From NCBI GenBank assembly GCA_963836185.1, contig CAWIIQ010000002.1:160001-224000 (forward strand): a stretch of DNA of 64,000 bases. Direction: 5' to 3'. The notes beneath the pieces are model-generated. The model was not told the DNA's origin and searched no databases. It saw nothing but the letters and a program-made list of their open reading frames with translations. Position 1 is the stretch's first letter; each line of letters begins with the position of its first letter. The DNA is from Candidatus Krumholzibacteriia bacterium. GTDB taxonomy: Bacteria > Krumholzibacteriota > Krumholzibacteriia > Krumholzibacteriales > Krumholzibacteriaceae. Shown piece by piece: positions 2,013-40,176 of this stretch. The translations under genes and the position numbers were made by a program.

Positions 2013-3893
2013 TTATTCCTGGTCTGTGCCGTATGCGTCACGATTCTTCTCCGCCCACTCCAGCATCCCCTTCCGCGGCCACACGATGATGTAATGGACA
2101 GGCTTGTACTTGCCTTCCATGATGAGCAATGTCCGTTGCGGCGAGTTGGCAGCCGCCAGCCTAAGGTCCTGTTCGCTCGTTCCGATCGGATATACCCTTC
2201 CGCCGTTCTGCTCGGGTATCTGCCTGAGGTGAGCCAGCCCGGGGCTGAGCTCCTCGAGCAGCGGATCGTAGAACCAGCTTCCCCCGATCATTCCCTTTAT
2301 CCGTGGATAGCGTTTCAGGAGATCGGCGATATTGAGGTAGCAGCGGATCCATCCTTCCTTGCTGAAGTTCTTTCTCAGGTACCTCATGTCGAGGTGGATA
2401 CTGTAGAAGGGCTTCAATCCCTTCATCTGCCTGACGGTATAGCTCAGTCCATCGATGAACTGCCCCACCCCGCCCGTGAACAGGAACTTGCTTCCGATCC
2501 CCGATTCTTCCACGAGGAACCCGACGGGGACCAGTCTAAGGCTGCAGACGGCCAGGTCCTTGCAGAACCGGTCTTTCCTGTAGTCGTAAAACTCATCCTC
2601 CATCAGGCCGAAATCTTCGATGATCCTCTCGAACCATTCGCCGTACAGCTTGTTGATCTTCTCCGGAAGACCCATGTTTTCCAGGATGGGGATCGAGTCC
2701 CTGATAAAATGCGCCATCGCCGTCTTCTGATACAGGGCGATGCCCCTGATCCCGCAGGATGCTTCAATATCATCAAACGCCGCCACAAGTTTCGGGCTGG
2801 TGTTCCGGTAGAAGTGTCGCCGCCTGTACGATCTCACTATCCCGGAGTATCGCTCGATCGGGTATTTCCGGAGGACATCCGGGGTGATCCGCAGGAGTTC
2901 CCCTTCGAGGGTTCCGATCGCCTCTTCGGCCCTGGCAGCGATGCCCGCCATCTCCGGAGTCGTCTTCCTGTATTTGTCCGCCCACGCTATCAGATCTTTC
3001 CTGTTCCACAGCATCATGTGGCCGGTCGGTCTGTACTTTCCCTCTTCGTACAATCTTTTTCTCGTCGGAGACTTCAACGTCGAGAGCCTTATGTCCCTCG
3101 CGCTGGAACCGGTCTTGAAGAATCGCGCGCGGCGCTTCTCGGGGCGTTCCCTGAGATAGGCCAGTCTCGGGCTGATCCTGCTGATCTCCGGATCATAGAA
3201 CCAGCTGACGGCGAATAACCCCTTGATCCGCGGATTGGCCTTCAGCATCTCGGCGACCCTGACAAAACAACGGTCACGTCCATCTGAGTTGAATTTGTCC
3301 AGATACCGCATATCCATATGTATGCCGTAGAAGGGGTGGAATCCCCTCGTTCCGATCACTGTTCGGTACATATAGCAGAAGAATTGCTTTATCCCGCCCG
3401 ACAGGAAATGTCTTCTGCTCAGGCCGGCTATCTCTGTCAGTTCACACCCGACCGGGGTCATACGCATGCTGCAGACCCCGAGGTCCTTGCAGAAGAAATC
3501 CTGCTCGTGATCATAGAACTCGTCCGGCTGTTTCGAGAAATCATCCACGATCCTCTCGAACCATTCGTAATAAAGCCCGGTGATATCGGCGGAGAAACTC
3601 GTAGAGGGAAGCCTGTCGATCGTCCTCTTGATAAAGGAAGCGAGGGCCAGCTTGTGATAGAGGGTGATGCCGGGCTGGCCGTATTCGGCCCTGATGCTCT
3701 CAAAGGCCGCCGTCAGCCTGAAGGGGAAATCCCTGTACAGGTACAGTTCGGGGAGCGACTCGATCTCATCTATATACATCTCGATGGGGAATTTCGTGAG
3801 AAAGTTCTCATCGAGCCTTTCGAGGCCCTCTTTAAACGAATCTATCCGGCTGTCGACAAGGGCTTCAGTCAGCATCAAAGGCTCCAGACGCAA
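2013..3893 (-). CDS. Protein of two tandem ~300-aa repeats, possibly a GNAT-like acyltransferase
   Basis: Each half carries FCKDLxVCSxRxxPVG, IHxDMRYL, SWFYDP and EGKY[RK]P. SWFYDP resembles the SWLLDP motif of GNAT_C-type acyltransferases. Confidence 0.6.
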   Translation of the reverse strand: MRLEPLMLTEALVDSRIDSFKEGLERLDENFLTKFPIEMYIDEIESLPELYLYRDFPFRLTAAFESIRAEYGQPGITLYHKLALASFIKRTIDRLPSTSFSADITGLYYEWFERIVDDFSKQPDEFYDHEQDFFCKDLGVCSMRMTPVGCELTEIAGLSRRHFLSGGIKQFFCYMYRTVIGTRGFHPFYGIHMDMRYLDKFNSDGRDRCFVRVAEMLKANPRIKGLFAVSWFYDPEISRISPRLAYLRERPEKRRARFFKTGSSARDIRLSTLKSPTRKRLYEEGKYRPTGHMMLWNRKDLIAWADKYRKTTPEMAGIAARAEEAIGTLEGELLRITPDVLRKYPIERYSGIVRSYRRRHFYRNTSPKLVAAFDDIEASCGIRGIALYQKTAMAHFIRDSIPILENMGLPEKINKLYGEWFERIIEDFGLMEDEFYDYRKDRFCKDLAVCSLRLVPVGFLVEESGIGSKFLFTGGVGQFIDGLSYTVRQMKGLKPFYSIHLDMRYLRKNFSKEGWIRCYLNIADLLKRYPRIKGMIGGSWFYDPLLEELSPGLAHLRQIPEQNGGRVYPIGTSEQDLRLAAANSPQRTLLIMEGKYKPVHYIIVWPRKGMLEWAEKNRDAYGTDQE

Positions 3894-4152
3894 AGGGGAA
3901 TCAATCAGATATTTAAAGTAATATCCCTATACGTTCAAGTAGATATTGGCTTGCACTGGTCCGAATATCGTTTATATTCGCAGCGACAGGGAAATTTTTC
4001 AGGCATTGTCGCGGGGGCCGGGTGTATAATCACTCAAGGTTCGTCCGGAAGGACGGAGGAATCCTGCGCAATCATGCGGATCTTCCCGGTGCGGACAGGT
4101 GTCCGGAGGGAAGGGACTACGCTCTAACCCCTATTGTTTTTATGCATTTGAA

Positions 4153-4168
4153 CGGCATACATATTGCA
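4153..4168 (+). promoter_or_regulatory. Putative sigma54 -24/-12 promoter
   Basis: CGGCATACATATTGCA (GG-N10-GC) upstream of ATG 4195. Confidence 0.6.
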
Positions 4169-4194
4169 ACCGAAACGGGAGGGGAGGTACAGCC

Positions 4195-5943
4195 ATGAAT
4201 AGGCTCCAGTATTGGATTTTTATAACTCTAATGATTCTTCCTCTTGCCGGGCTGCATGCGGAAAATTATTACATGTCGCCGGGTGGCGATAACGGCCGAA
4301 GCGGTTTATCGCCCGACTTGTCCTGGGCCACGATGCAGTATGCATCATCGCAGATGGGCGCCGGAGACACCCTGTTCATCATGGGCGGGACTTACAGCGA
4401 CGACCAGTATTTCCACAGGACGAACGGTACGGGAGGCGCTCCCGGAAGCCCGCTCGTCATAAAGGCATACGGGGACGAAGTCGCCATATTCCAGCGCACG
4501 GGCAGGAACGACAGACATCTTAATTACTACTTCTACTTCTATTACGGCACTGATTACGTGACGATCGATGGATTCAGCAGCCTGAATCCCTCGGATTCCC
4601 TGTACATCAAGCTCGAGGGTCACGAGGATGCTTCGTACGCGGTTCGTTTCCTCGGAGCGACCGGCGGGACCAACTGGTGCGAGCATATCACGGTCAGGGG
4701 GATCGAGATCGACGGCGATCACGAGTGGGATGCTCCGGGCGGCCTGCTCAGGTACGGTATCGGTACGACCTTCAGCAGGTATGTGTTGATAGAGAGCAAC
4801 TACATCCATCACATATACCACGCTACGGGAGACCTGCCAGGCGGTGACGGCACAGATCGCGCGCAGGGAACGGGAGAGGCGGTCTATCTACTCAGCACCG
4901 AGCTCTCGACAGTTCAGAAGAACACGGTGAAGTATGTGAATCATGCCGGGATGGCGTTCGGCCAGTACGCGAACCCCAGCGATCCGGTATGCAGGTACAA
5001 CAAGATCAGGTATAACCGCTGTGACATCTACTGGGGCGGCGGGATCTACCTGTTCCAGAACTGCGAATACAATCTTGTCGAGGGAAACGTCATCACTCAC
5101 TGCGGCGAGACCACGACAAAGACGAAGGGCGCCTTCTACATCGCCGGCTCAAACAACACGGTAAGAAGGAACGTCACCTACAATCCGATGGCGGGTGCGC
5201 TGGGCATGAAGGGGATGAGGTTCGAGGATTTCTGCTATATCGTGCAGAACAACCTCGTCTACAACAATACCTTCTTCGGCACGCAGAGCGACAATCTCGA
5301 GCTGGTCGTAAAGAACACCGGCGCGAATGCTTGTGCCGACGCGAGGATGAACGACAATTTCTTCGCGAACAACATCTTCTACAAGTCGTGGGGACTTACG
5401 GCGGATGTCGGCAGCAGGGCCGGAGAGCTGAAGCTGTACCTCTACGACGCGAGCGCGGAACATAACTGGATCACCCCCGACCAGTCAGGTGTATCGCCGG
5501 CCAGTACGCACTGGGGCGGCAACAGGTTCTATCACAACCTGATGCGCAAGGACGAGCATCCCGCCGACTGGAATCAGGTCATCATCTACGCCATGGACGG
5601 CGATTATGGAAGTATCTACACATACTCGATCGCCGATGCGCAGAACAACGACCCGATCGCCTGGCGGAACAACATCGGCGATATCCCGCAGCTGCTCAGC
5701 GAGGACCCCGACGCAGTATACGAAGGCTGGTGGCGCATCATGCCGGGCAGCCCGTGCGTGGATCGCGGTACGATAGTGGACGAGACGAACGGCGCGTACG
5801 TCGAGTCGCTGCACCCGGGATACGGCTGGGCAGGCCTGGACTATTCCGGCACGGCTCCCGATATCGGGGCGTACGAAACGGACCTTGAGAATCCGGCGCC
5901 GCTCAGCACACCGGTCCAGGGCCGCCTGCAGACCGGCGGGTAA
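4195..5943 (+). CDS. Secreted right-handed beta-helix (pectin-lyase-fold) protein
   Basis: GGAGG RBS before ATG 4195; signal peptide; YYMSP.G.N...G start; Asn-rich helix repeats; C-terminal SPCVD.G...PDIGAYE. Confidence 0.8.
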   Translation: MNRLQYWIFITLMILPLAGLHAENYYMSPGGDNGRSGLSPDLSWATMQYASSQMGAGDTLFIMGGTYSDDQYFHRTNGTGGAPGSPLVIKAYGDEVAIFQRTGRNDRHLNYYFYFYYGTDYVTIDGFSSLNPSDSLYIKLEGHEDASYAVRFLGATGGTNWCEHITVRGIEIDGDHEWDAPGGLLRYGIGTTFSRYVLIESNYIHHIYHATGDLPGGDGTDRAQGTGEAVYLLSTELSTVQKNTVKYVNHAGMAFGQYANPSDPVCRYNKIRYNRCDIYWGGGIYLFQNCEYNLVEGNVITHCGETTTKTKGAFYIAGSNNTVRRNVTYNPMAGALGMKGMRFEDFCYIVQNNLVYNNTFFGTQSDNLELVVKNTGANACADARMNDNFFANNIFYKSWGLTADVGSRAGELKLYLYDASAEHNWITPDQSGVSPASTHWGGNRFYHNLMRKDEHPADWNQVIIYAMDGDYGSIYTYSIADAQNNDPIAWRNNIGDIPQLLSEDPDAVYEGWWRIMPGSPCVDRGTIVDETNGAYVESLHPGYGWAGLDYSGTAPDIGAYETDLENPAPLSTPVQGRLQTGG

Positions 5944-6038
5944 GCCGAAGCGGACGGAGAAACGGAATTTCATGCAGGCTGCCGTATGCGCACTGGCGCG
6001 AATATCGGCAGCCTGTTATGCTTTCAGGGTGAATTTCC

Positions 6039-7166
6039 ATGAATGACAGCCGATTACCGATAAGAGTGATGTTTGTCGTGCCGTGCTTCGGGTACGGGGG
6101 CCTCGAGCAGGTCATCCTGAACATCGTGAGGGACCTGGACCGCTCGAGGTTTACGCCTTCGTTCTGCTCCCTTGTCGTTCCTGAGCCTGGCCTGTTCGAA
6201 GATCTTAAGGCACTCGACCTCGGATGCCACATCATCGAGAAGGGCGACGGCATAAAGCCTTCCCTGCCGCTGAAGCTCGGCAGGCTTTTCAGGGCCGAGC
6301 GGATAGACATCATAAATGCCCATGATATCGGCGCTACGATATATGCGGCGCCCGCTGCCCGGCTCGCCCGGACCCCCGCGTTCATCCACACCGATCACAG
6401 CCAGATCCTGGCGAAAACGAAATACCCAGGCGTCTACAGATGGATATGGAAGAACCTCGTCGATTACTCGATAACAGTCTCGGAGGATCTTGAGCGGCAC
6501 CTGGTCTCGAGGTACGGGGTGGATTCCGGCCTGGTACGCACAATACCGAACGGGATCGATACCGGCCGGTTCGCCGGCGGCGGAGGCACCGGCGAACTGC
6601 GGAAAGAACTCGGGATAAGCGAGGGGGACAGGGTGATAGGGACGATAGGGAGGTTGATGAGGCAGAAAGGGATGCCTTACCTGCTCGAGGCCTTCAGAAT
6701 ACTGCGGCAGGGAGCTTCCGATACGACACTGGTCATCGTGGGAGACGGCGAGGAGAGGGCCGGCCTCGAGCAGCGCGCCCGGGAACTCGGCATAAGCGAC
6801 AAGGTCGTCTTCGCGGGGATCCGCAGGGATATTCCCGATCTTCTCGCGATGTTCGACATCTTCACCCTCGCGTCGTTATGGGAGGGGCAGCCGATCACGA
6901 TCATGGAGGCGATGGCCGCGGGAAGGCCGATCGTCGCGACAGACGCGGGAGGCAGCGCGGAGGTCCTCGACGACGGAAGGTGCGGCATCATCGTGCCGGT
7001 CAAGGATCCCGGGGCCCTGGCCGGATCGATCCGGTCTCTCCTCGACGATCCGGAACTCGCGGGCAGGTTCGGCGAGCGGGCCCGGGAGCGCGCGGAGGCC
7101 GAGCTCAGCTCTGCCGCGATGACGAGGAAGTATGAAGATGTCTTCGGATCTGTCCACGGCAGGTGA
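6039..7166 (+). CDS. Glycosyltransferase family 4
   Basis: GGLEQV, IPNGID, GRL..QKG, SLWEGQPITIMEAMA.G.P motifs. Confidence 0.92.
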   Translation: MNDSRLPIRVMFVVPCFGYGGLEQVILNIVRDLDRSRFTPSFCSLVVPEPGLFEDLKALDLGCHIIEKGDGIKPSLPLKLGRLFRAERIDIINAHDIGATIYAAPAARLARTPAFIHTDHSQILAKTKYPGVYRWIWKNLVDYSITVSEDLERHLVSRYGVDSGLVRTIPNGIDTGRFAGGGGTGELRKELGISEGDRVIGTIGRLMRQKGMPYLLEAFRILRQGASDTTLVIVGDGEERAGLEQRARELGISDKVVFAGIRRDIPDLLAMFDIFTLASLWEGQPITIMEAMAAGRPIVATDAGGSAEVLDDGRCGIIVPVKDPGALAGSIRSLLDDPELAGRFGERARERAEAELSSAAMTRKYEDVFGSVHGR

Positions 7167-7184
7167 GGGAAAAAAGACTGGACA

Positions 7185-7200
7185 GGGTACGTAAGTTGCA
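7185..7200 (+). promoter_or_regulatory. Putative sigma54 promoter of the kinase-RtcB module
   Basis: GGGTACGTAAGTTGCA (GG-N10-GC with TTGC) in the intergenic gap. Confidence 0.45.
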
Positions 7201-7255
7201 TAAGATGGTCGATAATAGGAAGTTAATAGGGATTGTAGAGTAATCGACTACGACC

Positions 7256-8323
7256 ATGGATGATATTCACATCAAGCTGGGCTCGTTGCCCGTCCGGATA
7301 AGTTCAGACGACGGGGACTTTCTCGAGTATACCCTCAGCCATTTTGCGCCCGTGACGATCGATCCGCCTGCACGGTGCGCCGTCGAGGCGCGCTTCACCC
7401 GGGGCCCCTGCGAAGAGGAGCAGACCGCGCTTGCCCGGTACGACCGGATCGGCAGGGGGATCTACACCGATGGAAAGACTGTGATCTGGAACACGGTCCC
7501 GTATTTCCCCGCGATGACGATGAGCTTCCTGTTCGAGGGAGAGACGCTGGCCGTCAGGGCGTATCAGAATACTTCCGGATCGATGAAAAGCACGGTGAAG
7601 AATCTCGTCAGAGCGATCTACGGCCAGTCGGAGAGCAGGAGCGTCTTCTATTTCGAGCTGCTCTACTATCTCGTCTACTACCCGGTGTTCCGGATGCTTT
7701 CCGACAGGGGGATCCATGCTCTTCACGGCGGCGGGATAGAGGCGCGCGAGAAGCGCATCGTGGTGGTGGGGGCACAGGGAACAGGCAAGTCGACGCTCAT
7801 AGCCAACCTGCTCGCCGGGTCCGGTTCGCGTTTCCTCTCCGACAACATCATCCTTTTCGACAGCAGGAGGGTGTATTCATGTCATGAGCCGGTACGCCTC
7901 GATACAGGCATGCTGGATAATGATCCCCTGCTGAGGGAGATGGTGTCGAAGATCGACCTGGATGTGCCTCTAGGGCGGACGGCTGGAAATGTCCGCCGGG
8001 AATCGTATATCGAGTCGATGGAGCCGGATATATTCATCATACCGAGGATAACCCGGTCGGCGACATCGCTCGAACCGTGCACGAAAGAGGATGTAGTCCG
8101 AAAGGCATTGTATTTCAACAGTCTTGCCGACGAGGTAAGATCCTTCGATATATTCGCCTCGGTCCTCGGGCAGGTCTTTCCCCCGAAGCTGCCTCCCTGC
8201 AGCGGGGCAGAGGCCCTCAGCGCGCTTCTTGAGGGCAGGGAGTTATACGAACTCGGCATCGGATACGGTGAGGATCCCGGGGTGACCGCGCGTGCCTTCA
8301 TCGAGAGTGTGACCAATGAGTGA
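7256..8323 (+). CDS. HPr-kinase-related P-loop kinase
   Basis: LHGGG...GAQGTGKSTL...LSDN matches the HprK-type LH...GxxGxGKS...DD pattern. Confidence 0.75.
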   Translation: MDDIHIKLGSLPVRISSDDGDFLEYTLSHFAPVTIDPPARCAVEARFTRGPCEEEQTALARYDRIGRGIYTDGKTVIWNTVPYFPAMTMSFLFEGETLAVRAYQNTSGSMKSTVKNLVRAIYGQSESRSVFYFELLYYLVYYPVFRMLSDRGIHALHGGGIEAREKRIVVVGAQGTGKSTLIANLLAGSGSRFLSDNIILFDSRRVYSCHEPVRLDTGMLDNDPLLREMVSKIDLDVPLGRTAGNVRRESYIESMEPDIFIIPRITRSATSLEPCTKEDVVRKALYFNSLADEVRSFDIFASVLGQVFPPKLPPCSGAEALSALLEGRELYELGIGYGEDPGVTARAFIESVTNE

Positions 8324-9746
8324 TGACAAGATAAAGCTGCTCTTTGACGAGTCCTTCGATCCCGACGAGAGGCTGATCGCCTCGCTGAAGGATATAGCCG
8401 GTATCGACGACGTGCATATGGTAGTCGGCATGGTCGACCTGCACCTGAAGAAGAATACGGAGAATCCCTCGAGCGTCGCTATCGCGACGCGCGAGAGGCT
8501 CATCCCCAAGCTTTCAAGCGTGGCCCAGAACTGCGGGATGGCGATCGCGGCGACAAATCTCACGACGGGCGATGCCGGGGTGGAGAGGCTGGAGGAGCTC
8601 TTCGGCAGGATGAGGGCCGAGGATGACACGCTTATGCGGCACCCGGGGATGAGCGTCGAGGATATGAGAAGGGCCGCGTGCCTCGGAGCGCCCTGGGCGG
8701 CGGAAAAGGCGGGGCTCCCCGTTGATTTCCCGGAAAATATCGAGTTCGGGGGAGCCGTCGGCAGGACCGATCTGCTTTCGTGGAAGGAGCTCGGGAAACT
8801 GGTCCCGCGTTATTCCCTCGATCGCGGAAGGTACGGGTTCGGGGTGATTCCGGCCGGCAACCATTTCCTGGAGATACAGGCGGTGGACGAAGTGATCGAC
8901 GGGGAAGAATGCGAAAGGCATGGTATCCGCGAGAACGGGATCATGATAATGATCCATTCCGATGGAGGCCTCATATCAGACGATATAGGAAACCTGTACG
9001 GGAACCGGACGACCGCGAAGGGATACATCAGGGCTCTTTATAACGTAAGGAAGACGGCCCTGCATCTTCGCGACTGGCGGGGGGTGGAGAACTGGAAGGA
9101 AAAGAAGGAGTATTACTTCGGCGCTGGCAGGTATATCCAGATCTCCCCAGGGACGGATGAGGGGAAGCGGTTCCTCAAGGCGAAGGACCTTTCGATGAAT
9201 GCCGGGTATGCTTCGAGAGTGACTACGATGGGAAGGGTGAAGAGGCTCATGGGAGAGGTCTTCCCCGAGGGGCCGTTCGATATGCGACTGCTCTGCGATT
9301 TTTCACATAATTCTATTTTCCGCGAGACGATCGACGGCAGCCCCGTGTGGGTGCACCGTCACAACGCGTGCAGAGTCGTAGAAGGACAGCTCGTATTTCT
9401 GCCCGGATACAGTAATACATCTTCGTATATCTGCGCAGGTTCTTCCGGCGCCCGCGATTTCCTCAACACTATGGATCACGGGGCCGGGAAGACGATAGAC
9501 CGGTTGAAGAAGAAGGGACTCGTGCGTGAGCTCGGAAACGGACGCGTCACGAGGAGCTACAACAATGAGTCACCGGAACCGAAACAGGTCCCTCATGTGT
9601 CCGACGAAGGCATAGACGCGGTTATCGAATCACTGGGCCGTAACGATATCGTGAGGCCTGTCGCGAGGCTGAGGCCCATGGCCGGTTACCGCTATCTCTG
9701 GAAGGGCCGGCTGGCACGGGCACGAGAGAAGATAACGGCCGGCTAG
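8316..9746 (+). CDS. Diverged RtcB-family (GTP-dependent ligase) protein
   Basis: RtcB motifs in canonical order: DLH, NCGM, GNHFLEIQ, MIHS, SHN, VHR, LPG, HGAG, LRP. Start overlaps the kinase stop. Confidence 0.8.
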   Translation: MSDDKIKLLFDESFDPDERLIASLKDIAGIDDVHMVVGMVDLHLKKNTENPSSVAIATRERLIPKLSSVAQNCGMAIAATNLTTGDAGVERLEELFGRMRAEDDTLMRHPGMSVEDMRRAACLGAPWAAEKAGLPVDFPENIEFGGAVGRTDLLSWKELGKLVPRYSLDRGRYGFGVIPAGNHFLEIQAVDEVIDGEECERHGIRENGIMIMIHSDGGLISDDIGNLYGNRTTAKGYIRALYNVRKTALHLRDWRGVENWKEKKEYYFGAGRYIQISPGTDEGKRFLKAKDLSMNAGYASRVTTMGRVKRLMGEVFPEGPFDMRLLCDFSHNSIFRETIDGSPVWVHRHNACRVVEGQLVFLPGYSNTSSYICAGSSGARDFLNTMDHGAGKTIDRLKKKGLVRELGNGRVTRSYNNESPEPKQVPHVSDEGIDAVIESLGRNDIVRPVARLRPMAGYRYLWKGRLARAREKITAG

Positions 9747-9758
9747 GGCGCTGTAAGG

Positions 9759-10397
9759 GTGTTGTTGCGGACTATGAACCAGACTGGCGGCGGCGAATAT
9801 AAACTGCTCTTTCTCCTGCCCGTTTTCCCTGACACAGGCAGGGTCCTCCTGCTCGACATCGGATCAGACAGCCTGGAGCGGCGGCTCTCCGCAATGGGGA
9901 TAGAATGCCGCACGGGAAGCGTTGATGACGTGTCGCGGGATGACGCCGGCGCAGGCAGGTTCGATTTGATCGTCGCAGGCAGGATGCCGTCGGGCCGCCG
10001 GGCCATGGATATGTTCAAGCGATCGGTCGGCGGCCTTCTTACAGGTACCGGCTGGCTGGTCGTCGTCTCGCCGAACAGGTTCGGATACTCGAGGCTGGCG
10101 GGCAGAGGCGGGGGCGGCGCTGGCAGCTCGCTCGGCGCGATGCGGGGAATGGTTAGAAAGATGGGATTTACCGACATCCACATATATTCTCCGGTCCCGG
10201 ATACGGCCAATCCATCGGCCTTCATCTCGCTTTACGGATCGAATTCGCTCGAGTTCCTTCTCGGGCAGTTTCCCGATTTTATCTCGGCCCGGTCGGGCCC
10301 CGTAAGGGGTATCCTGTCGTTATTGATACGGACCGGCATATTCAGGTACGTCCAGAATTACTACGCGATAGTCGCCGGCGGGCGGGAACAGGTGTAA
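9759..10397 (+). CDS. Class I methyltransferase-fold protein, probably degenerate
   Basis: VLLLDIG, FDLIV and LL...GWLVVVSPNR pattern; glycine-rich SAM motif I is incomplete (DIGSDS). Confidence 0.5.
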   Translation: MLLRTMNQTGGGEYKLLFLLPVFPDTGRVLLLDIGSDSLERRLSAMGIECRTGSVDDVSRDDAGAGRFDLIVAGRMPSGRRAMDMFKRSVGGLLTGTGWLVVVSPNRFGYSRLAGRGGGGAGSSLGAMRGMVRKMGFTDIHIYSPVPDTANPSAFISLYGSNSLEFLLGQFPDFISARSGPVRGILSLLIRTGIFRYVQNYYAIVAGGREQV

Positions 10398-10411
10398 GAA
10401 ACAGGATCCGC

Positions 10412-11416
10412 ATGTTGTTCTATCTGAAAAATATGATCGCCGAACGCCTCGGTATCCGCGACACCGATGAAGCTGTGGTGACGAGGGTAGAGGCAGGCAC
10501 AAAAGCGGTCCTCTTCTTCTTCCTCGAGAGGGGAAGCATCGTGCCGTCTATCGTAGTCAAGGCGGCAAGCGATCCCCGTTTCAATGATGAGCTGCGCGGT
10601 GAAAGTGCGAACCTAGGATACCTCAGGGATATACTTTCAGATGGCCTGGGCGGCGGCGTTCCCGCAGTCGAGGCCGACGGGGAATGGATGGGGCTGTACT
10701 ACTACGCCCAGCGTTATTTTCCCGGTGTCATGCTCGACGAGACGATCGACGACGTCGAGCCTTCCGGGGAGGGGACTGGTCCCGGGAGGGGATTACGGGC
10801 CGCCTGGCGGTGGCTTGATGATTTCCAGGAAGCGACGGCGTCGGAGCCGGTCATGCTCGGCCGGTCCGGTCTCGATATCTTGTTCGGCTCGTACAGGGAA
10901 GCCTTCGCCCCGGAAGGGGACGAAGCGGCATATCTCGGCAGTCTCGAGAAGAGGCTGGCGGACCGCCATGAAGGGGAGACAGGCATGTCCGCCTGTCACG
11001 GGGACTTCTTTCCCGGGAATATCATCCTGTCCGGCGACCGGGTGACCGTGATCGACTGGCGGTTCCTGCGCAGGTCGTACAACCGGTTCTTCGATTTCTT
11101 CACCCTGCTCCTGACGTTTTACGCGTCCGAGGGTGGAGTGACCGACTATGATGATCACGAGGGGCATTTCAGGAGACTTTTCTTCGAGAAGCACTGGACC
11201 AACGATCTGTTCTCCGGTCTCTGCCGCGAGTTCCTGGAACGAAACGGGACCGATGCCGGACTGTTCGGACTGATGCTTGAACTGACCCTTCTCGAGTGGT
11301 CCGTCAGGGAGTTCAGATCCAGCGGAACGACAGGGGAGATGGACATCATCTGGCGCACGAGATTCCTGTACCACATGAATAACAGGGATCGCTTCATCCT
11401 CGGGAGCGTGGAGTAG
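10412..11416 (+). CDS. Aminoglycoside phosphotransferase / choline-kinase-like kinase
   Basis: VVK lysine, CHGDFFPGNI catalytic loop, VIDW metal-binding motif. Confidence 0.85.
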   Translation: MLFYLKNMIAERLGIRDTDEAVVTRVEAGTKAVLFFFLERGSIVPSIVVKAASDPRFNDELRGESANLGYLRDILSDGLGGGVPAVEADGEWMGLYYYAQRYFPGVMLDETIDDVEPSGEGTGPGRGLRAAWRWLDDFQEATASEPVMLGRSGLDILFGSYREAFAPEGDEAAYLGSLEKRLADRHEGETGMSACHGDFFPGNIILSGDRVTVIDWRFLRRSYNRFFDFFTLLLTFYASEGGVTDYDDHEGHFRRLFFEKHWTNDLFSGLCREFLERNGTDAGLFGLMLELTLLEWSVREFRSSGTTGEMDIIWRTRFLYHMNNRDRFILGSVE

Positions 11417-11419
11417 GCG

Positions 11420-13537
11420 ATGTCGAATGCGCGGAAAAAGATACGTATTTTCTCACCCCGGGAGATTGCTTTCAGGCTTTCCGAGAAGGTGCGTTTCCGC
11501 CGGGAGAGACGAGGGAAGAGGCCGCAGGTCGAGATCACGCGGGAATACCACGGCCTGAAGGACAGGTTTATACCCGTGGGGCTGTTTCCGTTCACGGGAG
11601 AGAAGGAATCGGTATGCGGCATGTGGCGCGAGGTTTTCCCCGGATCGGCAGAGGGAGAGATCGCTCTCGCTGACGGTATTCTGGAGAACCGTATTCCCGT
11701 CTTTTCGGAAAAGGTCGACTATGGCGACAGGGTGGACTGGCACCTTGATCCGGTCTCCGGGACGAGGTCGCCCGTGGTCTTCTACCGCGACATAGATACC
11801 TTCGATACATCGGTGGCGGGAGATCCCAAGCGTATCTGGGAACTCAACAGGCACGATTTCTTCATCCATCTCGGGAAGGCATACTGGATAAACGGCGATG
11901 TCAGGTATTTTGATAAATGGCGCGAATTGATCGTGTCGTGGGTGGAGGAGAACCCGTACCACATGGGGATCAACTGGGAGAGCAGCCTCGAGATGGCGTT
12001 CAGGTCGATCAACTGGATATGGTCGTCGTACTTCTTCGCGGACCGGCTGGAGGCCGACAGAGAGCTCCAGGAGCTGATTTTCGAGACTTTGTACCTGCAG
12101 GCGGACCATATCAGCAATCACCTCTCGTATTTTTTCAGTCCCAACACCCATCTGACAGGGGAGGCGCTGGGGCTCCTCTACATCGGCAGGGTGTATCCCG
12201 CGATGAAGCCCGCTGCCGCCTGGGTCTCGACGGCGGTCGATATCCTCGAAACGGAACTCGAAAAGCATATCCTCGAGGATGGCGGATATTTCGAGATGGC
12301 GACCTACTATCACAGGTACACGATCGATTTCTACCTGCATTTCTTTCTTCTTTCGGGCGGGGTCGACGGCCCGGGCCTGAAGAGGAGAGAGTATTTGAAG
12401 AAGATGGTCCGTCACCTCGTCCTTCTCTCGGAACCTGACGGGACTATTCCCCTGCTGGGCGATTCAGACGGCGGCCGGCTGCTGATGCTCGATGACCTGA
12501 AACGAAATGTCAGTGGCGCATGCTGCAGCGCGGCTGTGATACTGGGAGACGGTGAGCTCAAGTCGCTCTGCGGCTCCAGGTTCAGCGAGGAGACGATGTG
12601 GCTCCTCGGAACGGGGAGCAGGGAGAGGTTCGATGGACTGGCTGCCAGGCCGCCGGTACATTTCCATTCGATCAATGACAGTACGGGCCTGTACTGCTTC
12701 AGGAGCGGGATGACGGAGGATGACTCGTACACCCTGATCGACTGCGGTCCGCACGGCTGGAAGGGATGTGGGCACGCGCATGCCGACCTGCTCAGTTTCA
12801 TATGGTACAGCGGGGGGGAGATGGTACTGACCGATCCCGGCACCTTCACATATACAGGATCGCGGAGTATCCGCGATCAGTCCCGCAGCAGCTTGAGCCA
12901 CAACACCATCTCGGTCAACGGGCGCTCGCAGTCCGTTCCGGGAGAGCCGTTCAGGTGGAAGAGCGTCGCTGCCCCGAAATATGCCCGTGTCAGGGTAGAC
13001 AGGGAGTGCGGGAGGTTCGAGGGAGAGCACGACGCCTGGGAGGAGTTCGGCTGCGGCCACAGGAGATCGCTCTACTTCCTCGGCTCCTCCCTGACCGTGG
13101 TGATCGACGAGCTCAGCGTCTCCGGGCCGCTCGATTCGATCCTGTATAACCTGCAGTTCGGCGACGGGAAACTGAGCGAACTCAGCGGCGGCATTTTCAG
13201 GTTCGATGGAAAAGGGAGCGGCGGGAGCCGGTACGTAAGGATAATCGCCGGAGAAAAGGTCAGGGTCGACATCCGCGAGGGAGCGTTCTATCCTGACTAC
13301 GGGAAGAGGGTAGCGGCGCCGAGGCTCGAAGTGACAGCAGACCGCATCACCGAAGACCTGATGATCGTCACGCTGCTGAGCCCTGATGAGGAACTGGCCG
13401 GCAGTTTCCGGTGGAAGGATGGCCGCCGGATGGAAGGGTCCTCGCGGGCGGGCAGCTACATGCTGGAGTGCCGCGACAGAGAGATAATAGCTTTCAGGGA
13501 CGGAGAACAGGTTCTGCCTGGAAAGGTGCAGGCGTGA
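11420..13537 (+). CDS. Heparinase II/III family protein
   Basis: WELNRH, NPY..GINW, NTH...E, DGG..E...YH, GHAHAD.LS, DPG...Y, HNT motifs. Confidence 0.92.
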   Translation: MSNARKKIRIFSPREIAFRLSEKVRFRRERRGKRPQVEITREYHGLKDRFIPVGLFPFTGEKESVCGMWREVFPGSAEGEIALADGILENRIPVFSEKVDYGDRVDWHLDPVSGTRSPVVFYRDIDTFDTSVAGDPKRIWELNRHDFFIHLGKAYWINGDVRYFDKWRELIVSWVEENPYHMGINWESSLEMAFRSINWIWSSYFFADRLEADRELQELIFETLYLQADHISNHLSYFFSPNTHLTGEALGLLYIGRVYPAMKPAAAWVSTAVDILETELEKHILEDGGYFEMATYYHRYTIDFYLHFFLLSGGVDGPGLKRREYLKKMVRHLVLLSEPDGTIPLLGDSDGGRLLMLDDLKRNVSGACCSAAVILGDGELKSLCGSRFSEETMWLLGTGSRERFDGLAARPPVHFHSINDSTGLYCFRSGMTEDDSYTLIDCGPHGWKGCGHAHADLLSFIWYSGGEMVLTDPGTFTYTGSRSIRDQSRSSLSHNTISVNGRSQSVPGEPFRWKSVAAPKYARVRVDRECGRFEGEHDAWEEFGCGHRRSLYFLGSSLTVVIDELSVSGPLDSILYNLQFGDGKLSELSGGIFRFDGKGSGGSRYVRIIAGEKVRVDIREGAFYPDYGKRVAAPRLEVTADRITEDLMIVTLLSPDEELAGSFRWKDGRRMEGSSRAGSYMLECRDREIIAFRDGEQVLPGKVQA

Positions 13538-14646
13538 CGGTATCCGGCAGCGCGCAGACAGAGAACTATCCCGTACGGGAGGGATCCTCGCCGATGACCG
13601 GCCTGTACCTCTTCATCAAGAGGTCGTTCTACCGGGTCTGCAAGTGCCTCGGCCTGTTCAGCCTTGCCCGGCGCCGTGCGAGAGGAAAGCTCAGGATAAT
13701 AACCTACCACGGATTTTCGCTCGTCGACGAGAGCCGGTTCCTTCCGCGGACATTCATCGATCCTGCGACCTTCCACGAGCGTATGGCGCTGTTGAAGAGG
13801 AAAGGATTCAGCGTCCTCGGTCTGGAGGAGGCGCTCGGCCTGCTCTACGGCGGCGAGCTGCCGGCTGATCCGGTCGTTATCACTATCGACGATGGTTTCT
13901 ACAGCACATGGCGCGCCGCCTGGCCGGTCCTCAGGGAATTCTCCTATCCTGCGACCGTCTACGTGACTTCGTACTACGCGGTAAAAGAAAATCCCATATT
14001 CGGGCTCGCTGTCGATTACATATTCTGGAAGACCGACAGGACGGAATTCGATTCCGACGGCCTGGGACTGCCCTTCGGCGGCGTAATCCCGATCCGGGAT
14101 ACCCGTGAAAGATCTCTCGCCGCCAGGGATGTGATCTTCTTCGGCGAGAAGAGCCTGAGCGAGGAGGAACGGGTGGCCCTTTCGGAGAGGCTCGGAGAGA
14201 GGCTCGGGGTGGACTATTACGGGGCCCTCGCAGAGAGCCGGATACTGAGCATCATGAATGCCGGCGAGATCGGTGAACTTTCGAGGGCCGGCATCGACAT
14301 CGAGCTTCACACACATCGCCATGATATCGGCACGCGACGGGAGGACGCCGTGCGGGAGATAGGTGAATGCCGCGCCGTGCTCGAGCCCATCACCGGCAGG
14401 AAGCTGGAGCATTTCTGTTTTCCCGGCGGCCGGTGGTCCGGGAGCCATCAGGCGTGGCTCGAGGAACTAGGCATCCGGAGCGCCGCGACGTGCGACAGGG
14501 GACTGAACGATCGATCGACGTCGAGGTTCGGGCTCAAGCGTTTCGGTGACGACGCGGCCCTGTCGCGGATCGAATTCGAGGCAGAACTTTACGGTTTCGC
14601 GGAGGCCATAAGGTCCATCCAGGCCCGGCTGCGCCGGGGCAGCTGA
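13534..14646 (+). CDS. Polysaccharide deacetylase (NodB/CE4)
   Basis: IITYHG, ITIDDG, ELHTHRH, FCFPGG; GTG start overlaps the upstream TGA. Confidence 0.88.
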   Translation: MTVSGSAQTENYPVREGSSPMTGLYLFIKRSFYRVCKCLGLFSLARRRARGKLRIITYHGFSLVDESRFLPRTFIDPATFHERMALLKRKGFSVLGLEEALGLLYGGELPADPVVITIDDGFYSTWRAAWPVLREFSYPATVYVTSYYAVKENPIFGLAVDYIFWKTDRTEFDSDGLGLPFGGVIPIRDTRERSLAARDVIFFGEKSLSEEERVALSERLGERLGVDYYGALAESRILSIMNAGEIGELSRAGIDIELHTHRHDIGTRREDAVREIGECRAVLEPITGRKLEHFCFPGGRWSGSHQAWLEELGIRSAATCDRGLNDRSTSRFGLKRFGDDAALSRIEFEAELYGFAEAIRSIQARLRRGS

Positions 14647-14680
14647 AAAAAGTCGAAAGCCGCCGCATTTGAACGATAAG

Positions 14681-14696
14681 TGGCATCATTATTGAT
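14681..14696 (+). promoter_or_regulatory. Possible sigma54 promoter (variant -12)
   Basis: TGGCATCATTATTGAT upstream of asnB. Confidence 0.4.
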
Positions 14697-14745
14697 TGTC
14701 TGATATTTATTGCGGAGAAACAGGAAATCGGTCCGGGGGAGAACC

Positions 14746-16610
14746 ATGTGCGGCATATTCGGGATATATAGCCTGGACGGGCGCGGCGTCGATGAGCGGG
14801 AATCGGCGCGCATGCTCGATTTGCTGTCTCACAGGGGGCCCGACGGGAAAGGGACCTTCTGCGATGATCGAGTATTCCTCGGGCACGCGAGACTCAGCAT
14901 CATAGATGTCGAGGGAGGCAGCCAGCCGATCTTCAGCGAGGACGGGAACATCGCCATAGTCGGGAACGGCGAGATCTACAATCACGAGGAACTGCGGCGC
15001 GGCCTGATCAGCAGGGGGCACACTTTCAAGACGCGTTCCGATATCGAAGTGCTCGTTCACCTCTACGAAGAGGAGAAGGAGGGTTTTCTCGACAAGCTCA
15101 ACGGGATGTTCGCTTTCGCCATCTACGACAGGAGGGCGGGCGAGCTCTTCATCGCGCGTGACAGGATAGGGATCAAGCCGCTTTACTACTATTATGACGG
15201 CGGCAGACTGATCTTTTCATCCGAGATGAAGGCGATCATCAAGTCGGGACTTATCCCTCTCGAGGTAAACGATACCGTCGTATACCAGTTTCTCACGCTT
15301 CATTTTTCCGTGCCTCCTGATACCCTGATCAAGGGGATCCAGTCGCTGAGACCGGGTCATTACATCTTCGCCGGACGCGGGGAGCCGCAGCAGAAGCAGT
15401 ACTGGGATATCAGCCCCGACCCGGACGAACCGCCCCTGCCTCCCGCGGAGTCACTCCGGGAAGTCGAATCGCTTCTGATCGATTCGGTCGAGAAGAGACT
15501 GATGAGCGACGTGCCCCTCGGGCTTTATCTCAGCGGCGGGATAGACTCGAGCCTCATCGCCGCGCTGATGCACAATATGGTAGGCGACGGGATAAAGACC
15601 TTCTCTATCGGTTACCGCGAAAAGGAATACTCTGAGCTGCCCTGGGCGAAAAAGGTCAGCGAGATGATCTCCTCCGACCATACGGAAGTCATCGTCTCTC
15701 CTGACGAGATAAAGCACAATATCGAGGATGTCATATGGTACCGCGAGACACCGATCTCCGAGCCCGCTGATATCCCGATATTCATGCTCAGCCGGGCCGC
15801 GGCGAAGAAGGTCAAGGTCGTCCTTACCGGGGAGGGGGGGACGAGGTATTCGCAGGATACCACAAGTATGTCTTCGAGGACTGGGCGCGCAAAGCGGCGC
15901 TACTGAGGAATCCAGCCGCACGGGCGATGCTGATGAATCCCATGGCGCAGAAGATGTTTCCGCAGAGGATCAATACAGCCCTCGATCTCTTTTCGGAGAA
16001 GGACAGGTTTCGAAGGTACTACAGGTGGTTCAGCTATTTCAGGGACGAGGAGCTGCGCGGCATGGTCAAGCCCGGGAGGGCCGGATTCGTGTCGGGAAGG
16101 AACTTCTACAGGGAGATAGCTGGGGACAGGAGATTCAGGAACGGCCTCGACGAGATGCAGTATCTCGATGTCAAGGTATGGCTGCCCGATAACCTCCTTC
16201 TCAGGGGAGACAGGATGTCGATGGCTTCCGGCCTGGAGGCTCGTGTGCCCTTTCTCGATCACAGGCTCGTCGAGCTGAGCTATCGCCTCGGCATGTCGAT
16301 GAAGGTGAGGAAAAATTCAGGCAAGTACGTCATAAAGAAGATCGCCGAGAAATATCTTGATAAGGAAATAATCTACCGGAAAAAGGTTGGTTTCGCCGTG
16401 CCGGTCAGCGACTGGCTGCGGACCGACCTGAGGGATTTTCTGCAGGATCATCTGACGCGGAGCAATTCGTTCAGCGGAGGGATCTTCAGGAAAGAGAGTA
16501 TTGAGACGATGATCGACGACCATGCGTCAGGCAGGATGGACAACCACAAGAAGCTGTGGATCCTTCTTAACCTTGAGCTTTGGTACGACCAGTTCATCGG
16601 CGGCGCGTAA
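14746..16610 (+). pseudogene. asnB: Asparagine-synthase-like glutamine amidotransferase, frameshifted at a G7 tract (15834-15840)
   Basis: MCGIFG, HRGPD, NGEIYN, LSGGIDS in the first frame. LTGEGG|DEVFAGY needs one extra G. GLEARVPFLDH and RKKVGF follow in the second frame. Could be a sequencing error. Confidence 0.88.
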
Positions 16611-16628
16611 GACGCCGCAGGGAGAGCC

Positions 16629-17786
16629 ATGCTGACCGGCAGGGACATCATATGCTTCTCGAACGACTGGAGGAACGATCCGACCAGCAAGCACCAGATC
16701 ATGAAGATCCTTTCGAGGGAGAACAGGATAATCTGGGTCAATTCGATCGGCCTGAGGACCCCCACCATGGGCGCGGGAGACGCCAGGCGGATATTGAACA
16801 AGCTCAAGTCGTTCTTCCGCGGGATGGAAAGGGTCAATGAGAACCTGTACGTATACACGCCGATCGTCATCCCCTTCCACCGGATCGGGATCGTCCGCTC
16901 GATCAACGCGTTCATCCTCAAGCTCGCTCTCAACTCGTATATCCGCAGGCTCGGGATGAAAGACGTCATATGCTGGTCATATCTTCCCAACGCGGGCTAT
17001 ATAATAGAGAAGCTGAAACCGAAGACGATCGTTTATCACTGCGTGGACGAGTGGAGCAAGTTCTCATTCATCGATGACAGGATCGTCGAACAGGAGAGGG
17101 AGCTGTGCGAAATGTCCGATGTCGTCTTCGCTTCGGCGAGGACACTCTATGAGAGCAGAAAGCCTTACAATCCGAACACGCACTATATCCCGCACGGGGT
17201 CGACTACGAATATTTCCACGAGAGGAAAACGGCCGATTTGCCCCTTCCGGAGGATATGGCAGGTATCGGACACCCCATAGCGGGCTTCTTCGGCCTGATA
17301 CACGAGTGGATCGATCTCGACCTGCTCGCCCGTATCGCGAAGGATAATCCTGAAGTAAGCTTCGTCTACATCGGCAAGTATTCGGTCGATGTCGGCGCCG
17401 TCGACGCCTTCCCCAACACTCATTTCCTCGGGCAGAAGGAGTACAGCGAACTGATCGATTACGCGAAGCACTTCGATGTCGGGCTGATCCCCTTCAAGAT
17501 CAATGACCTGACCATCGCGGTGAATCCGATCAAGCTGAAGGAATACCTCGCTCTGGGGATCCCCGTCATTTCCGTCGGCCTCCCGGAAGTCAAGGCTTAC
17601 GGGCATGTCGTGCATGTGGCTGAAGACTACGGCCAGTTCGACAGTGCGCTGAAGGATGAGATCTCTGGCCGCCACAAGGTGACCTTCGAGCAGCTCGATG
17701 CCGTGGCGAGGGGGGAGACCTGGGACAGGAAGGTAGACGAGATATCCGGGATGATCACCGATGCGGAAGCGGGCCGCGACGGCTGA
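16629..17786 (+). CDS. Glycosyltransferase (GT4/TuaH-like)
   Basis: YHCVDE, HGVD, DVGLIPF, NPIKLKEYLA.G.PV. Confidence 0.9.
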   Translation: MLTGRDIICFSNDWRNDPTSKHQIMKILSRENRIIWVNSIGLRTPTMGAGDARRILNKLKSFFRGMERVNENLYVYTPIVIPFHRIGIVRSINAFILKLALNSYIRRLGMKDVICWSYLPNAGYIIEKLKPKTIVYHCVDEWSKFSFIDDRIVEQERELCEMSDVVFASARTLYESRKPYNPNTHYIPHGVDYEYFHERKTADLPLPEDMAGIGHPIAGFFGLIHEWIDLDLLARIAKDNPEVSFVYIGKYSVDVGAVDAFPNTHFLGQKEYSELIDYAKHFDVGLIPFKINDLTIAVNPIKLKEYLALGIPVISVGLPEVKAYGHVVHVAEDYGQFDSALKDEISGRHKVTFEQLDAVARGETWDRKVDEISGMITDAEAGRDG

Positions 17787-17791
17787 AGCCG

Positions 17792-18838: not shown

Positions 18839-18841
18839 CGG

Positions 18842-40154: not shown

Positions 40155-40176
40155 CAAAAGTCCTTTCTTCTTTCTG

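What the first reader, a model, noticed from the sequence alone, without database searches (positions are those of the whole stretch)
8316..9746. RtcB active site selectively rewired
Retained: DxH, the Cys of NCG, GNH, the His of HS, HN and the guanylylated His of HGAG. Changed relative to canonical motifs as I recall them: D-I-x-C to A-Q-N-C (metal Asp lost), HSGSRG to HSDGGL (Arg lost, new Asp), RKGA to RHNA, PGSMG to PGYSN, and the terminal Lys motif is altered. Keeping the nucleotidylation core while changing substrate-side residues suggests a new substrate or nucleotide rather than decay.
Basis: partly seen in the sequence, partly recalled or inferred. Interest (0 to 1): 0.75.

Follow-up and report, generated by a model that had tools for sequence, protein, structure and literature searches.

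The report
RNA-ligase relative recruited to glycan synthesis
This intact gene encodes a relative of the RNA-joining enzyme RtcB that lacks residues known to be needed for sealing RNA, travels with a predicted kinase in sugar-polymer gene clusters of several bacterial phyla, and likely activates a phosphorylated building block for a cell-surface polysaccharide, which would be a job outside nucleic acids for this enzyme family.

Summary
Observation confirmed. 8316-9746 is an intact 476-aa RtcB-fold gene under purifying selection. It keeps the His nucleophile, its Asp partner, the Mn1 ligands and guanine-reading Glu, but lacks Pyrococcus Asp95, Arg238 and Lys351. These losses mark a whole clade: among 228 divergent relatives Asp95 is kept in 4, Arg238 in 10, Lys351 in 9, against 77 of 77 canonical RtcBs; 217 gained a new Lys. 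The 'HSD' Asp is only subclade-specific. The genome has a separate canonical archease-rtcB pair. The clade sits in Wzx/Wzy or GT4 glycan operons beside a PEPCK/HPrK-fold P-loop protein (46 of 48 full-length loci; 0 of 73 canonical loci), and is fused to that protein or to a Wzx flippase in some records. Published D95A and R189A mutants lose sealing more than guanylylation. Best reading: a kinase-coupled His-GMP guanylyltransferase making a GDP-activated glycan building block (0.35); with self-catalysed phosphodiester transfer or cyclisation, about 0.63. Substrate unknown; no activity tested. Not found in six literature searches. This scan noted the same family earlier on three other genomes.

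The parts
8316..9746 (+). RtcB-fold protein, 476 aa, divergent clade; no transmembrane segment found, so probably cytoplasmic
8436..8474 (+). D41-x-H43-x-K45-xxx-E49-x-P-S-S motif: canonical D65/H67 plus clade-specific Lys (217 of 228 divergent rows, 0 of 77 canonical) and Glu
8523..8534 (+). A70-Q-N-C73: Mn2 ligand Asp95 absent, bridging Cys98 kept
   Evidence: roles from PMC9745838 passages
8859..8873 (+). N182-H183-F184-x-E186: triphosphate, Mn2 and guanine contacts kept
8955..8969 (+). H214-S-D-G-G218: Mn1 His kept, 5'-OH-strand Arg238 absent; Asp216 subclade-specific
   Evidence: PMC8051266
8991..9143 (+). Basic, aromatic helical insertion (median 50 residues, net +8, 8 aromatics in HRHN rows; 26 residues, net 0, 2 aromatics in canonical rows) with conserved R231 and H250; membrane or polyanion contact is a guess
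9306..9311 (+). H331-N332: Mn1 His329 and Asn330 kept
9354..9365 (+). H-R-H349-N350 in place of canonical H-R-K351-G352
9477..9488 (+). H388-G-A-G: nucleophile His404 equivalent, predicted to carry GMP
7256..8323 (+). Partner gene, 355 aa, two-domain PEPCK/HPr-kinase-fold P-loop protein (LH...GAQGTGKST...SDN...EPxR); stop overlaps the RtcB-like start by 8 bases
6039..7166 (+). GT4 glycosyltransferase, homolog of the GT4 found in 46 of 48 full-length related loci
9759..10397 (+). 212-aa protein, no Pfam hit; weak methyltransferase-like leads (Atlas scores 0.86-0.89); 39% identical to the gene at the same place in L003
10412..11416 (+). APH-family phosphotransferase with HGDF...N and D motifs; homolog of the kinase in 45 of 48 full-length related loci
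11420..17786 (+). Rest of the co-oriented operon: heparinase II/III-like protein, polysaccharide deacetylase, AsnB-type amidotransferase (split by a frameshift), GT4-like glycosyltransferase
4099..5943 (+). Beta-helix protein upstream; also present in L003 and L004, and beta-helix proteins recur in other loci

Best explanation
The gene encodes an RtcB-fold protein that keeps the nucleophilic histidine and the first metal site but lacks the residues that seal RNA, and it likely works as a kinase-coupled guanylyltransferase that turns a phosphorylated small building block into a GDP-activated donor for a cell-surface polysaccharide. Shown: fold, residue pattern, purifying selection, operon context, fusions. 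Inferred step 1: His388 attacks the alpha-phosphate of GTP (Mn bound by Cys73, His214, His331; new Lys45 and/or His349 may stand in for the lost Asp95 site), giving His-GMP and PPi. Inferred step 2: the upstream PEPCK/HPrK-fold protein, with or without the downstream APH-type kinase, supplies a phosphorylated sugar or metabolite X-P. Inferred step 3: GMP moves to X-P, giving X-ppG. Inferred step 4: X-ppG is released and used by a neighbouring glycosyltransferase (usually GT4) to build or decorate the lipid-linked repeat unit before export. X is unknown.
For: All eight core residues (D65, C98, N202, H203, E206, H234, H329, H404 equivalents) are present together in 146 of 155 HRHN rows and 50 of 73 other divergent rows. 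D95, R238 and K351 are kept in 4, 10 and 9 of 228 divergent rows and no row keeps two of them; 77 of 77 canonical rows keep all three. Both losses with published tests spare guanylylation more than sealing: E. coli R189A (=R238) slows sealing 200-fold but guanylylation 3-fold (PMC8051266); Pyrococcus D95A cannot ligate, and archease restores only its 3'-phosphate guanylylation (PMC3973293). Context: of 48 related loci with full flanks, kinase partner 46, GT4 46, APH kinase 45, Wzz 44, sugar dehydratase 44, DegT 43, Wzy 40, Wzx 33; partner in 12 of 13 non-actinobacterial loci, the 13th cut at the contig edge; partner in 6 of 7 divergent and 0 of 73 canonical metagenome loci. Partner-RtcB fusions P0142 and P0206 and Wzx-RtcB fusion P0146, each seen in more than one record. 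The conserved actinobacterial cluster has two kinase-type genes and no Pfam nucleotidyltransferase, LicD, Stealth or TagF among its conserved genes (two genes unannotated). One deep-branch locus adds a histidine phosphatase and three GT4 genes around the pair (L091), resembling kinase-phosphatase-guanylyltransferase routes (recalled). The RNA-repair role is filled elsewhere: canonical rtcB with archease directly upstream on another contig; a second, canonical-scoring RtcB in 8 of 11 genomes checked.
Against: No activity, substrate or product was measured. D95A alone inactivates Pyrococcus RtcB, and what replaces Asp95 is not shown, because model coordinates could not be inspected. The partner has Asn at the second Asp of the HPrK/PEPCK DD motif in 33 of 33 rows, so it may not be an ordinary kinase. 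The guanine pocket is partly remodelled (Y451 to D in 86%, K480 kept in 54% of HRHN rows). The partner is missing from two full-length loci (L009, L039) and from deep-branch L092. Two Anaerolineae/Thermoflexia loci show GT2 and Wzx but no GT4 in the DNA held. Three of 11 genomes have only the divergent copy. 67 of the 80 genome loci are actinobacterial kin, so the counts are not independent.
Confidence: 0.35

Rival explanations
1. Same activation (His-GMP, then X-ppG), but the enzyme itself completes the RtcB cycle: a hydroxyl (or amine) of the lipid-linked repeat unit attacks X-ppG, releasing GMP and leaving a phosphodiester-linked substituent or bridge, i.e. activation and transfer in one protein.
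For: Asn202, which anchors the attacking OH in RtcB, is kept in 99% of HRHN rows. A basic, aromatic insertion replaces the 5'-OH-strand groove and a Wzx fusion exists, both fitting work at the membrane on a lipid-linked acceptor. No LicD, Stealth or TagF among conserved cluster genes.
Against: Asn202 is also needed for guanylylation. D95A blocks sealing even with archease. The insertion's hydrophobic moment (0.55) is no higher than the canonical segment's (0.56), and P0206/P0217 lack the insertion.
Confidence: 0.22
2. The fold was kept for other chemistry or for binding only: a metal-dependent phosphoesterase or phosphotransferase, use of a different nucleotide or an NDP-sugar, or a catalytically weak scaffold or regulator of the glycan machinery.
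For: Loss of a metal ligand that is essential in Pyrococcus RtcB; partner DD-to-DN change; remodelled guanine pocket; N330 varies in the deeper branches.
Against: Nucleophile His, its Asp partner, Mn1 ligands and Glu206 are conserved together across sequences only 25-35% identical, which is what a working His-NMP cycle predicts.
Confidence: 0.2
3. A specialised nucleic-acid enzyme (RNA or DNA capping, or ligation of an unusual end) that rides in variable polysaccharide loci, with the P-loop partner acting as an end-healing kinase.
For: RtcB caps DNA 3'-phosphates and Myxococcus paralogs differ in capping and ligation (PMC10630183 passages). Loss of R238 would fit capping without sealing. The basic insertion could bind nucleic acid. 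Three of 11 genomes have no other RtcB.
Against: Context is glycan genes in several phyla with different gene orders, and fusion to a flippase. No archease, RtcA, PrfH or nuclease among conserved neighbours; no Rfam RNA in 1-30000; no PADLOC match; no clade member among phage, plasmid or viral records. R238, H242, K351 lost and R408/R412 not conserved.
Confidence: 0.1
4. The kinase phosphorylates a sugar of the repeat unit, the RtcB-like enzyme guanylylates that phosphate and a neighbouring hydroxyl attacks it, giving a sugar cyclic phosphate.
For: Released RNA-ppG is expected to cyclise by intramolecular attack (PMC3973293); an internal nucleophile needs no Arg238; a galactose 4,6-cyclophosphate exists in a bacterial capsule (PMC3210612 passages).
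Against: No link was found between any cyclic-phosphate glycan and this gene family (search listed none); no polymer structure is known for the loci examined.
Confidence: 0.06
5. A decaying RtcB duplicate that landed in a polysaccharide locus.
For: Canonical copy present elsewhere; distribution is patchy (6 of 151 genomes in the own phylum, 0 of 5 same-genus genomes).
Against: Intact ORF, dN/dS well below 1, clade-wide fixed substitutions and gains, conserved operon position.
Confidence: 0.02

Closest known systems
RtcB 3'-phosphate/5'-OH RNA ligase (P. horikoshii PH1602, E. coli RtcB, human RTCB; Pfam PF01139)
   Same: Fold (Foldseek TM 0.67, E 1e-29), nucleophile His and its Asp partner, Mn1 ligands, His203, Asn202, Glu206, Phe204, Ser385.
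   Different: Lacks Asp95, Arg238, His242, Lys351, Glu446/Tyr451 loop; adds Lys45, Glu49, His349-Asn350 and a basic aromatic insertion; about 22-25% identity; glycan operons instead of archease/RtcA/PrfH neighbours; separate branch of the tree.
Capping-prone or specialised RtcB paralogs (Myxococcus RtcB3, RtcB2-PrfH)
   Same: Paralogs that use the His-GMP step with altered outcomes (review passages).
   Different: They act on nucleic acids; the query scores far below the PrfH-linked model cut-offs (103 vs 407 and 79.5 vs 271.8 bits). Their sequences were not compared here.
Kinase plus nucleotidyltransferase donor routes in glycan and cofactor synthesis (AmgK-MurU, HddA-GmhB-HddC, LicA-LicC-LicD, CofC-CofD; all recalled, no call)
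   Same: Logic only: phosphorylate a small unit, activate it as an NDP derivative, transfer it.
   Different: Those activating enzymes are unrelated folds; here an RtcB fold with a predicted covalent His-GMP would do the activation.
HPr kinase / PEP carboxykinase clan, HprK-related kinases A and B (for the partner 7256-8323)
   Same: Whole-chain match to PEPCK (Z 16.3, rmsd 4.3, 283 residues) and C-domain match to HPrK (Z 13.3, rmsd 2.8, 128 residues); His and Walker A kept.
   Different: DN for DD; far below TIGR04352/TIGR04355 cut-offs (29.7 and 19.6 vs 200 bits); no Pfam family above cut-off.

Membership tests
RtcB superfamily (fold) | RtcB fold and Pfam PF01139 above cut-off | tested here: met
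   147 bits vs cut-off 27; Foldseek top matches all RtcB
Canonical RtcB RNA ligase | Nucleophile His404 with Asp65 | tested here: met
   H388 and D41
Canonical RtcB RNA ligase | Mn1 ligands Cys98, His234, His329 | tested here: met
   C73, H214, H331 (roles)
Canonical RtcB RNA ligase | Mn2 ligands Asp95, Cys98, His203 | tested here: not met
   Ala70 at Asp95; Asp in 4 of 228 divergent rows vs 77 of 77 canonical
Canonical RtcB RNA ligase | 5'-OH strand contacts Arg238 and His242 | tested here: not met
   Gly218 and Asp222 (roles)
Canonical RtcB RNA ligase | Conserved HRKG and HGAGR-xxx-R basic residues | tested here: not met
   HRHN; K392 for R408; R396 kept here but R408/R412 only 25%/44% in HRHN rows
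Canonical RtcB RNA ligase | Guanine contacts Glu206, Phe204, Lys480 | tested here: inconclusive
   E186 and F184 kept; Arg459 for Lys480; Tyr451 replaced by Asp
Canonical RtcB RNA ligase | GTP- and Mn-dependent joining of 3'-phosphate to 5'-OH RNA | not testable with these tools
   needs an assay
Canonical RtcB RNA ligase | RNA-repair gene context (archease, RtcA, PrfH) | tested here: not met
   archease lies beside the other copy; conserved neighbours here are glycan genes
PrfH-associated RtcB2 (TIGR03073, NF007153) | Score above curated cut-off | tested here: not met
   79.5 vs 271.8 and 103.1 vs 407 bits
HPr(Ser) kinase/phosphorylase (partner gene) | PEPCK/HPrK fold with Walker A | tested here: met
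HPr(Ser) kinase/phosphorylase (partner gene) | DD signature (recalled) and TIGR00679 score | tested here: not met
   DN in 33 of 33 rows; TIGR00679 matched by 3 of 33 at best E 1e-4
NDP-donor-forming nucleotidyltransferase of glycan synthesis (works-like claim) | Forms NDP-X from NTP and X-phosphate | not testable with these tools
   inferred from residues and context only

The most novel reading that the evidence does not exclude
A widespread, undescribed two-gene module, PEPCK-fold kinase plus RtcB-fold His-GMP enzyme, is a new route to phosphate-activated glycan chemistry: it makes a nucleotide-activated building block or directly installs a phosphodiester (or cyclic phosphate) on bacterial surface polysaccharides, the first RtcB-family enzyme acting on something other than nucleic acid.
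Probability: 0.6. Interest if true: 0.9.

Novelty: new variant of a known kind. Interest (0 to 1): 0.76.

Why it matters
Every RtcB described in the papers read here acts on RNA or DNA ends. A clade at least as diverse as the canonical sample in the tree, hidden under the annotation 'RNA-splicing ligase RtcB', appears to have moved His-GMP chemistry into polysaccharide synthesis. If true it adds a new class of donor-forming or phosphodiester-forming enzyme to glycobiology, predicts undescribed surface polymers in culturable soil actinobacteria (Terrabacter, Kribbella, Intrasporangium, Humibacillus), corrects database annotations, and shows how RtcB chemistry can run without Asp95, which bears on the open question of what the second metal and archease do. 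The claim is directly testable with one purified protein and one knockout.

Tried and rejected
Complex prediction of the RtcB-like protein with the partner: no answer, score 0.00, controls not folded; not used as evidence. Search for longer fused forms returned only four intein-containing RtcBs; the fusions came from the representative search instead. Viral contigs: 109 pattern hits, none confirmed. Phage and plasmid records: 72 and 116 matches, the 15 listed of each at 22-26% identity, taken as canonical-type. PADLOC: no match for the RtcB-like protein. Rfam: none in 1-30000. Homology of 9759-10397 to the small conserved actinobacterial gene: inconclusive, hhalign probability 0.7%. Amphipathicity of the insertion: no excess over canonical, so membrane binding stays a guess. 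'HSD Asp as replacement ligand': rejected as a family feature. Maximum-likelihood tree did not finish; FastTree used, no rooting or clade test run, P0209 left out as frameshifted. Actinoplanes EPS clusters (PMC13390465, parts 1-2 of 6): none lists an RtcB domain. Five primary papers were not held (Maughan and Shuman 2015 and 2016, Englert 2012, Desai 2013, Burroughs and Aravind 2016), so an earlier mention of this clade there or in supplements is not excluded. A search for the HPrK catalytic Asp gave nothing relevant; that role is recalled.
Full report
1. The observation. The ORF at 8316-9746 (+) is intact, 476 aa. It scores 147 bits on Pfam RtcB (cut-off 27) and below every NCBIfam RtcB model's cut-off. 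An AlphaFold2 model from a 60-sequence alignment is confident (pLDDT 93.4, pTM 0.92) and its Foldseek matches with low E-values are RtcB structures (4dwq E 1.2e-29, TM 0.67). Pyrococcus numbering was transferred through the genome's own canonical RtcB. Kept: D65, H67, C98, N202, H203, F204, E206, H234, H329, N330, G379, S385, H404. Changed: D95 to Ala70, R238 to Gly218, H242 to Asp222, K351-G352 to His349-Asn350, S380-M381-G382 to Tyr-Ser-Asn, R408 to Lys, Y451 to Asp, K480 to Arg.

2. It is a clade, not a broken gene. The word-index search found 409 relatives among 7998 candidates and listed 120: 17 at 47-81% identity, the rest at 32-38%. All 120 have HRHN, and 1 of the 118 covering the site has Asp at D95. 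The full HMMER search found 1245 representatives and listed 150. I aligned 305 sequences of at least 420 aa (shorter rows dropped): 74 canonical (73 metagenome loci plus the own copy), 3 canonical-like hits, 155 with HN at 349-350 and 73 other divergent rows (the HRHN group is defined by that motif, so its 100% there is circular). Among the 228 divergent rows D95 is kept in 4, R238 in 10, K351 in 9, never two together, and 217 have a new Lys at position 45; 77 of 77 canonical rows keep all three and none has the Lys. A FastTree tree of 154 rows puts the 26 canonical rows on one side of a branch with support 100, the 128 divergent rows on the other; it is unrooted and untested for clades. E. 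coli RtcB has D75, R189, K299, PGSMG, R341, R345. dN/dS is about 0.21 and 0.23 against L003 and L004 (dS near saturation) and median 0.138 (0.036-0.311) in 149 pairs above 80% identity. New features: K45, E49, S52, S53, R231, H250 at 95-100% in HRHN rows and an insertion after H214 of median 50 residues, net +8, eight aromatics, against 26, 0 and 2 in canonical rows; its hydrophobic moment is unremarkable.

3. Surroundings. In the window the gene lies in a tight co-oriented run: beta-helix protein, GT4, P-loop partner (8-base overlap), RtcB-like, 212-aa unknown with weak methyltransferase leads, APH-type kinase, heparinase II/III-like, deacetylase, AsnB-type amidotransferase, GT4-like; further GT4, GT2, acetyltransferase, Wzy_C and WbuX genes follow to 28 kb. 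The canonical rtcB is on another contig with archease directly upstream. A GTDB scan confirmed 200 relatives and returned the best 80, 67 of them actinobacterial by record title. In the 48 loci with full flanks: partner 46, GT4 46, APH 45, Wzz 44, sugar dehydratase 44, DegT 43, Wzy 40, Wzx 33, initiating sugar transferase 30; partner in 67 of all 80. It is directly upstream in 14 loci plus the window and elsewhere in the operon in 53. Of 13 non-actinobacterial loci 12 have it; the 13th is cut at the contig end. Acidobacterial loci read GT4, ABC transporter, partner, RtcB-like, GT4, AsnB; two Chloroflexota loci have GT2, Wzx and a UbiA-type gene. A metagenome scan returned 80 loci, which supplied a control: partner in 6 of 7 divergent loci (the seventh is cut) and 0 of 73 canonical loci, 32 of which exceed 10 kb. 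Exceptions: L009, L039, L092. Fusions: partner-RtcB in P0142 (four 885-aa records, Chloroflexota) and P0206 (two records), on different branches of the tree; Wzx-RtcB in P0146 (two records, Eisenbacteria, 13 hydrophobic segments). Distribution is patchy: 6 of 151 genomes in the own phylum, 2 of 351 and 6 of 351 in two other phyla, 5 of 201 in one actinobacterial family, each count including its centre genome. A second, canonical-scoring RtcB occurs in 8 of 11 genomes checked.

4. The partner. Its model (pLDDT 92.5) matches PEP carboxykinase over the whole chain (Z 16.3, rmsd 4.3, 283 residues) and HPr kinase over the C-domain (Z 13.3, rmsd 2.8, 128 residues). His157, Walker A, Asp196-Asn197, Glu-Pro-x-Arg and Glu293 are invariant or nearly so in 33 rows. 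It is far below the HprK-related models' cut-offs; Atlas neighbours are unnamed. The Asn replaces an Asp recalled as the base or metal ligand in HPrK and PEPCK; this may mean an already anionic acceptor or a weakened kinase (inference).

5. Mechanism. From passages of PMC9745838: Mn1 is held by C98, H234, H329; Mn2 by D95, C98, H203; E206 and K480 read guanine. From the whole text of PMC8051266: R238 binds two phosphates of the 5'-OH strand, H242, R190 and Q194 also contact it; E. coli R189A slows sealing 200-fold and guanylylation 3-fold; N202 anchors the 5'-OH and is needed for guanylylation. From passages of PMC3973293: D95A is inactive alone, archease restores its 3'-phosphate guanylylation but not ligation; K480A tolerates ATP; released RNA-ppG is expected to cyclise. 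The clade has therefore kept what is needed to form His-GMP and pass GMP to a phosphate, and lost what holds and seals an RNA strand. Placed beside one or two kinase-type genes and glycosyltransferases, in clusters whose conserved genes include no recognised nucleotidyltransferase or phosphotransferase of LicD, Stealth or TagF type (two genes unannotated), the simplest role is to guanylylate the kinase product. I put 0.35 on release of a GDP-activated donor, 0.22 on transfer by the same enzyme to a glycan hydroxyl, 0.06 on cyclisation (together about 0.63), 0.2 on other chemistry or binding only, 0.1 on a nucleic-acid substrate, 0.02 on decay. Against: D95A kills the Pyrococcus enzyme and the substitute is not shown; the nucleotide could differ; nothing was assayed; most loci are related actinobacteria.

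6. Comparison with what is known. It is a member of the RtcB fold family and fails the tests for a canonical ligase (Mn2 Asp, Arg238, HRKG, context). It would work like kinase-plus-nucleotidyltransferase donor routes (AmgK-MurU, HddA-GmhB-HddC, LicA-C-D, CofC-CofD; recalled, not tested), with an unrelated fold. Reviews read in part (PMC10630183 abstract, section 6 and passages; PMC8131947 passages; PMC13247085 passages) mention only RNA and DNA substrates in what I saw. Six full-text searches, judged from their listings, showed no description of an RtcB in polysaccharide loci: RtcB with glycosyltransferase and gene cluster (3 papers), with HPr kinase (1), with polysaccharide biosynthesis and paralog (1), with gene neighborhoods, RNA repair, divergent, clade (27, 15 listed), with exopolysaccharide, flippase, kinase, Wzy (177, the 20 listed have no RtcB mention) and with capping terms (14, 12 listed). 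Five primary papers were not held, and subscription journals and supplements were not seen, so a prior mention is not excluded. This scan's notes describe the same family on three other genomes; my reading was recorded before seeing them and they are not counted as evidence; their glycosyltransferase fusion claim was not checked.

7. Verdict. Real, conserved and unexplained by the literature searched: a neofunctionalised RtcB clade tied to a PEPCK-fold partner in glycan operons across at least four phyla. New variant of a known enzyme kind by fold and predicted chemistry; a new kind of pathway if the glycan role holds (about 0.6). Interest 0.76.

Noticed in passing
window 14710-16610 (+), junction near 15830-15840: AsnB-type amidotransferase is split into two frames at a run of G; relatives L003 and L004 carry a single ORF of about 620 aa. 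Sequencing error in a homopolymer or a phase-variable tract.
   Followed up: partly
window 2013-3893 (-): 626-aa protein with no Pfam or NCBIfam hit, made of two tandem copies of a 300-residue domain (43% identity, E 2e-88), beside the glycan locus.
   Followed up: partly
window 640-1545 (-) and 4099-5943 (+): Two probably secreted proteins share a short C-terminal stretch (G/LENPAPLSA/TP); the first has a weak FlgD/T9SS-type tail.
   Followed up: no
window 25734-26711 (-) and 39165-40187 (-), with 26711-28282 and 40177-41727: Two separate NadE-like plus AMP-dependent ligase gene pairs (exosortase-associated ligase type), one next to a WbuX-type amidotransferase.
   Followed up: no
P0007: One close ortholog (63% identity) has Asp at the Asp95-equivalent position while keeping all other clade changes; a natural control for the role of the second metal site.
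   Followed up: no
L091 (G063) 8200-19998 and L096, L097: Deep-branch members sit with several APH-type kinases, GT4 genes, a two-component system, an outer-membrane efflux protein and an ABC exporter; L091 has a histidine phosphatase directly before the partner gene.
   Followed up: partly
L092 (G075) 4782-12211: Deep-branch member without the partner kinase, next to a B12 radical SAM enzyme, a methyltransferase and a MurD-like ligase; may be a second context.
   Followed up: partly
L097 7211-11424: Partner-kinase match lies in an ORF that begins like a sigma factor, and the RtcB-like gene is in two frames; possible decay or assembly error.
   Followed up: no
cluster 25 in actinobacterial loci, e.g. 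L063:19027-20052: Conserved 340-aa probable lipoprotein without Pfam hit in 31 of 48 full-length loci.
   Followed up: no
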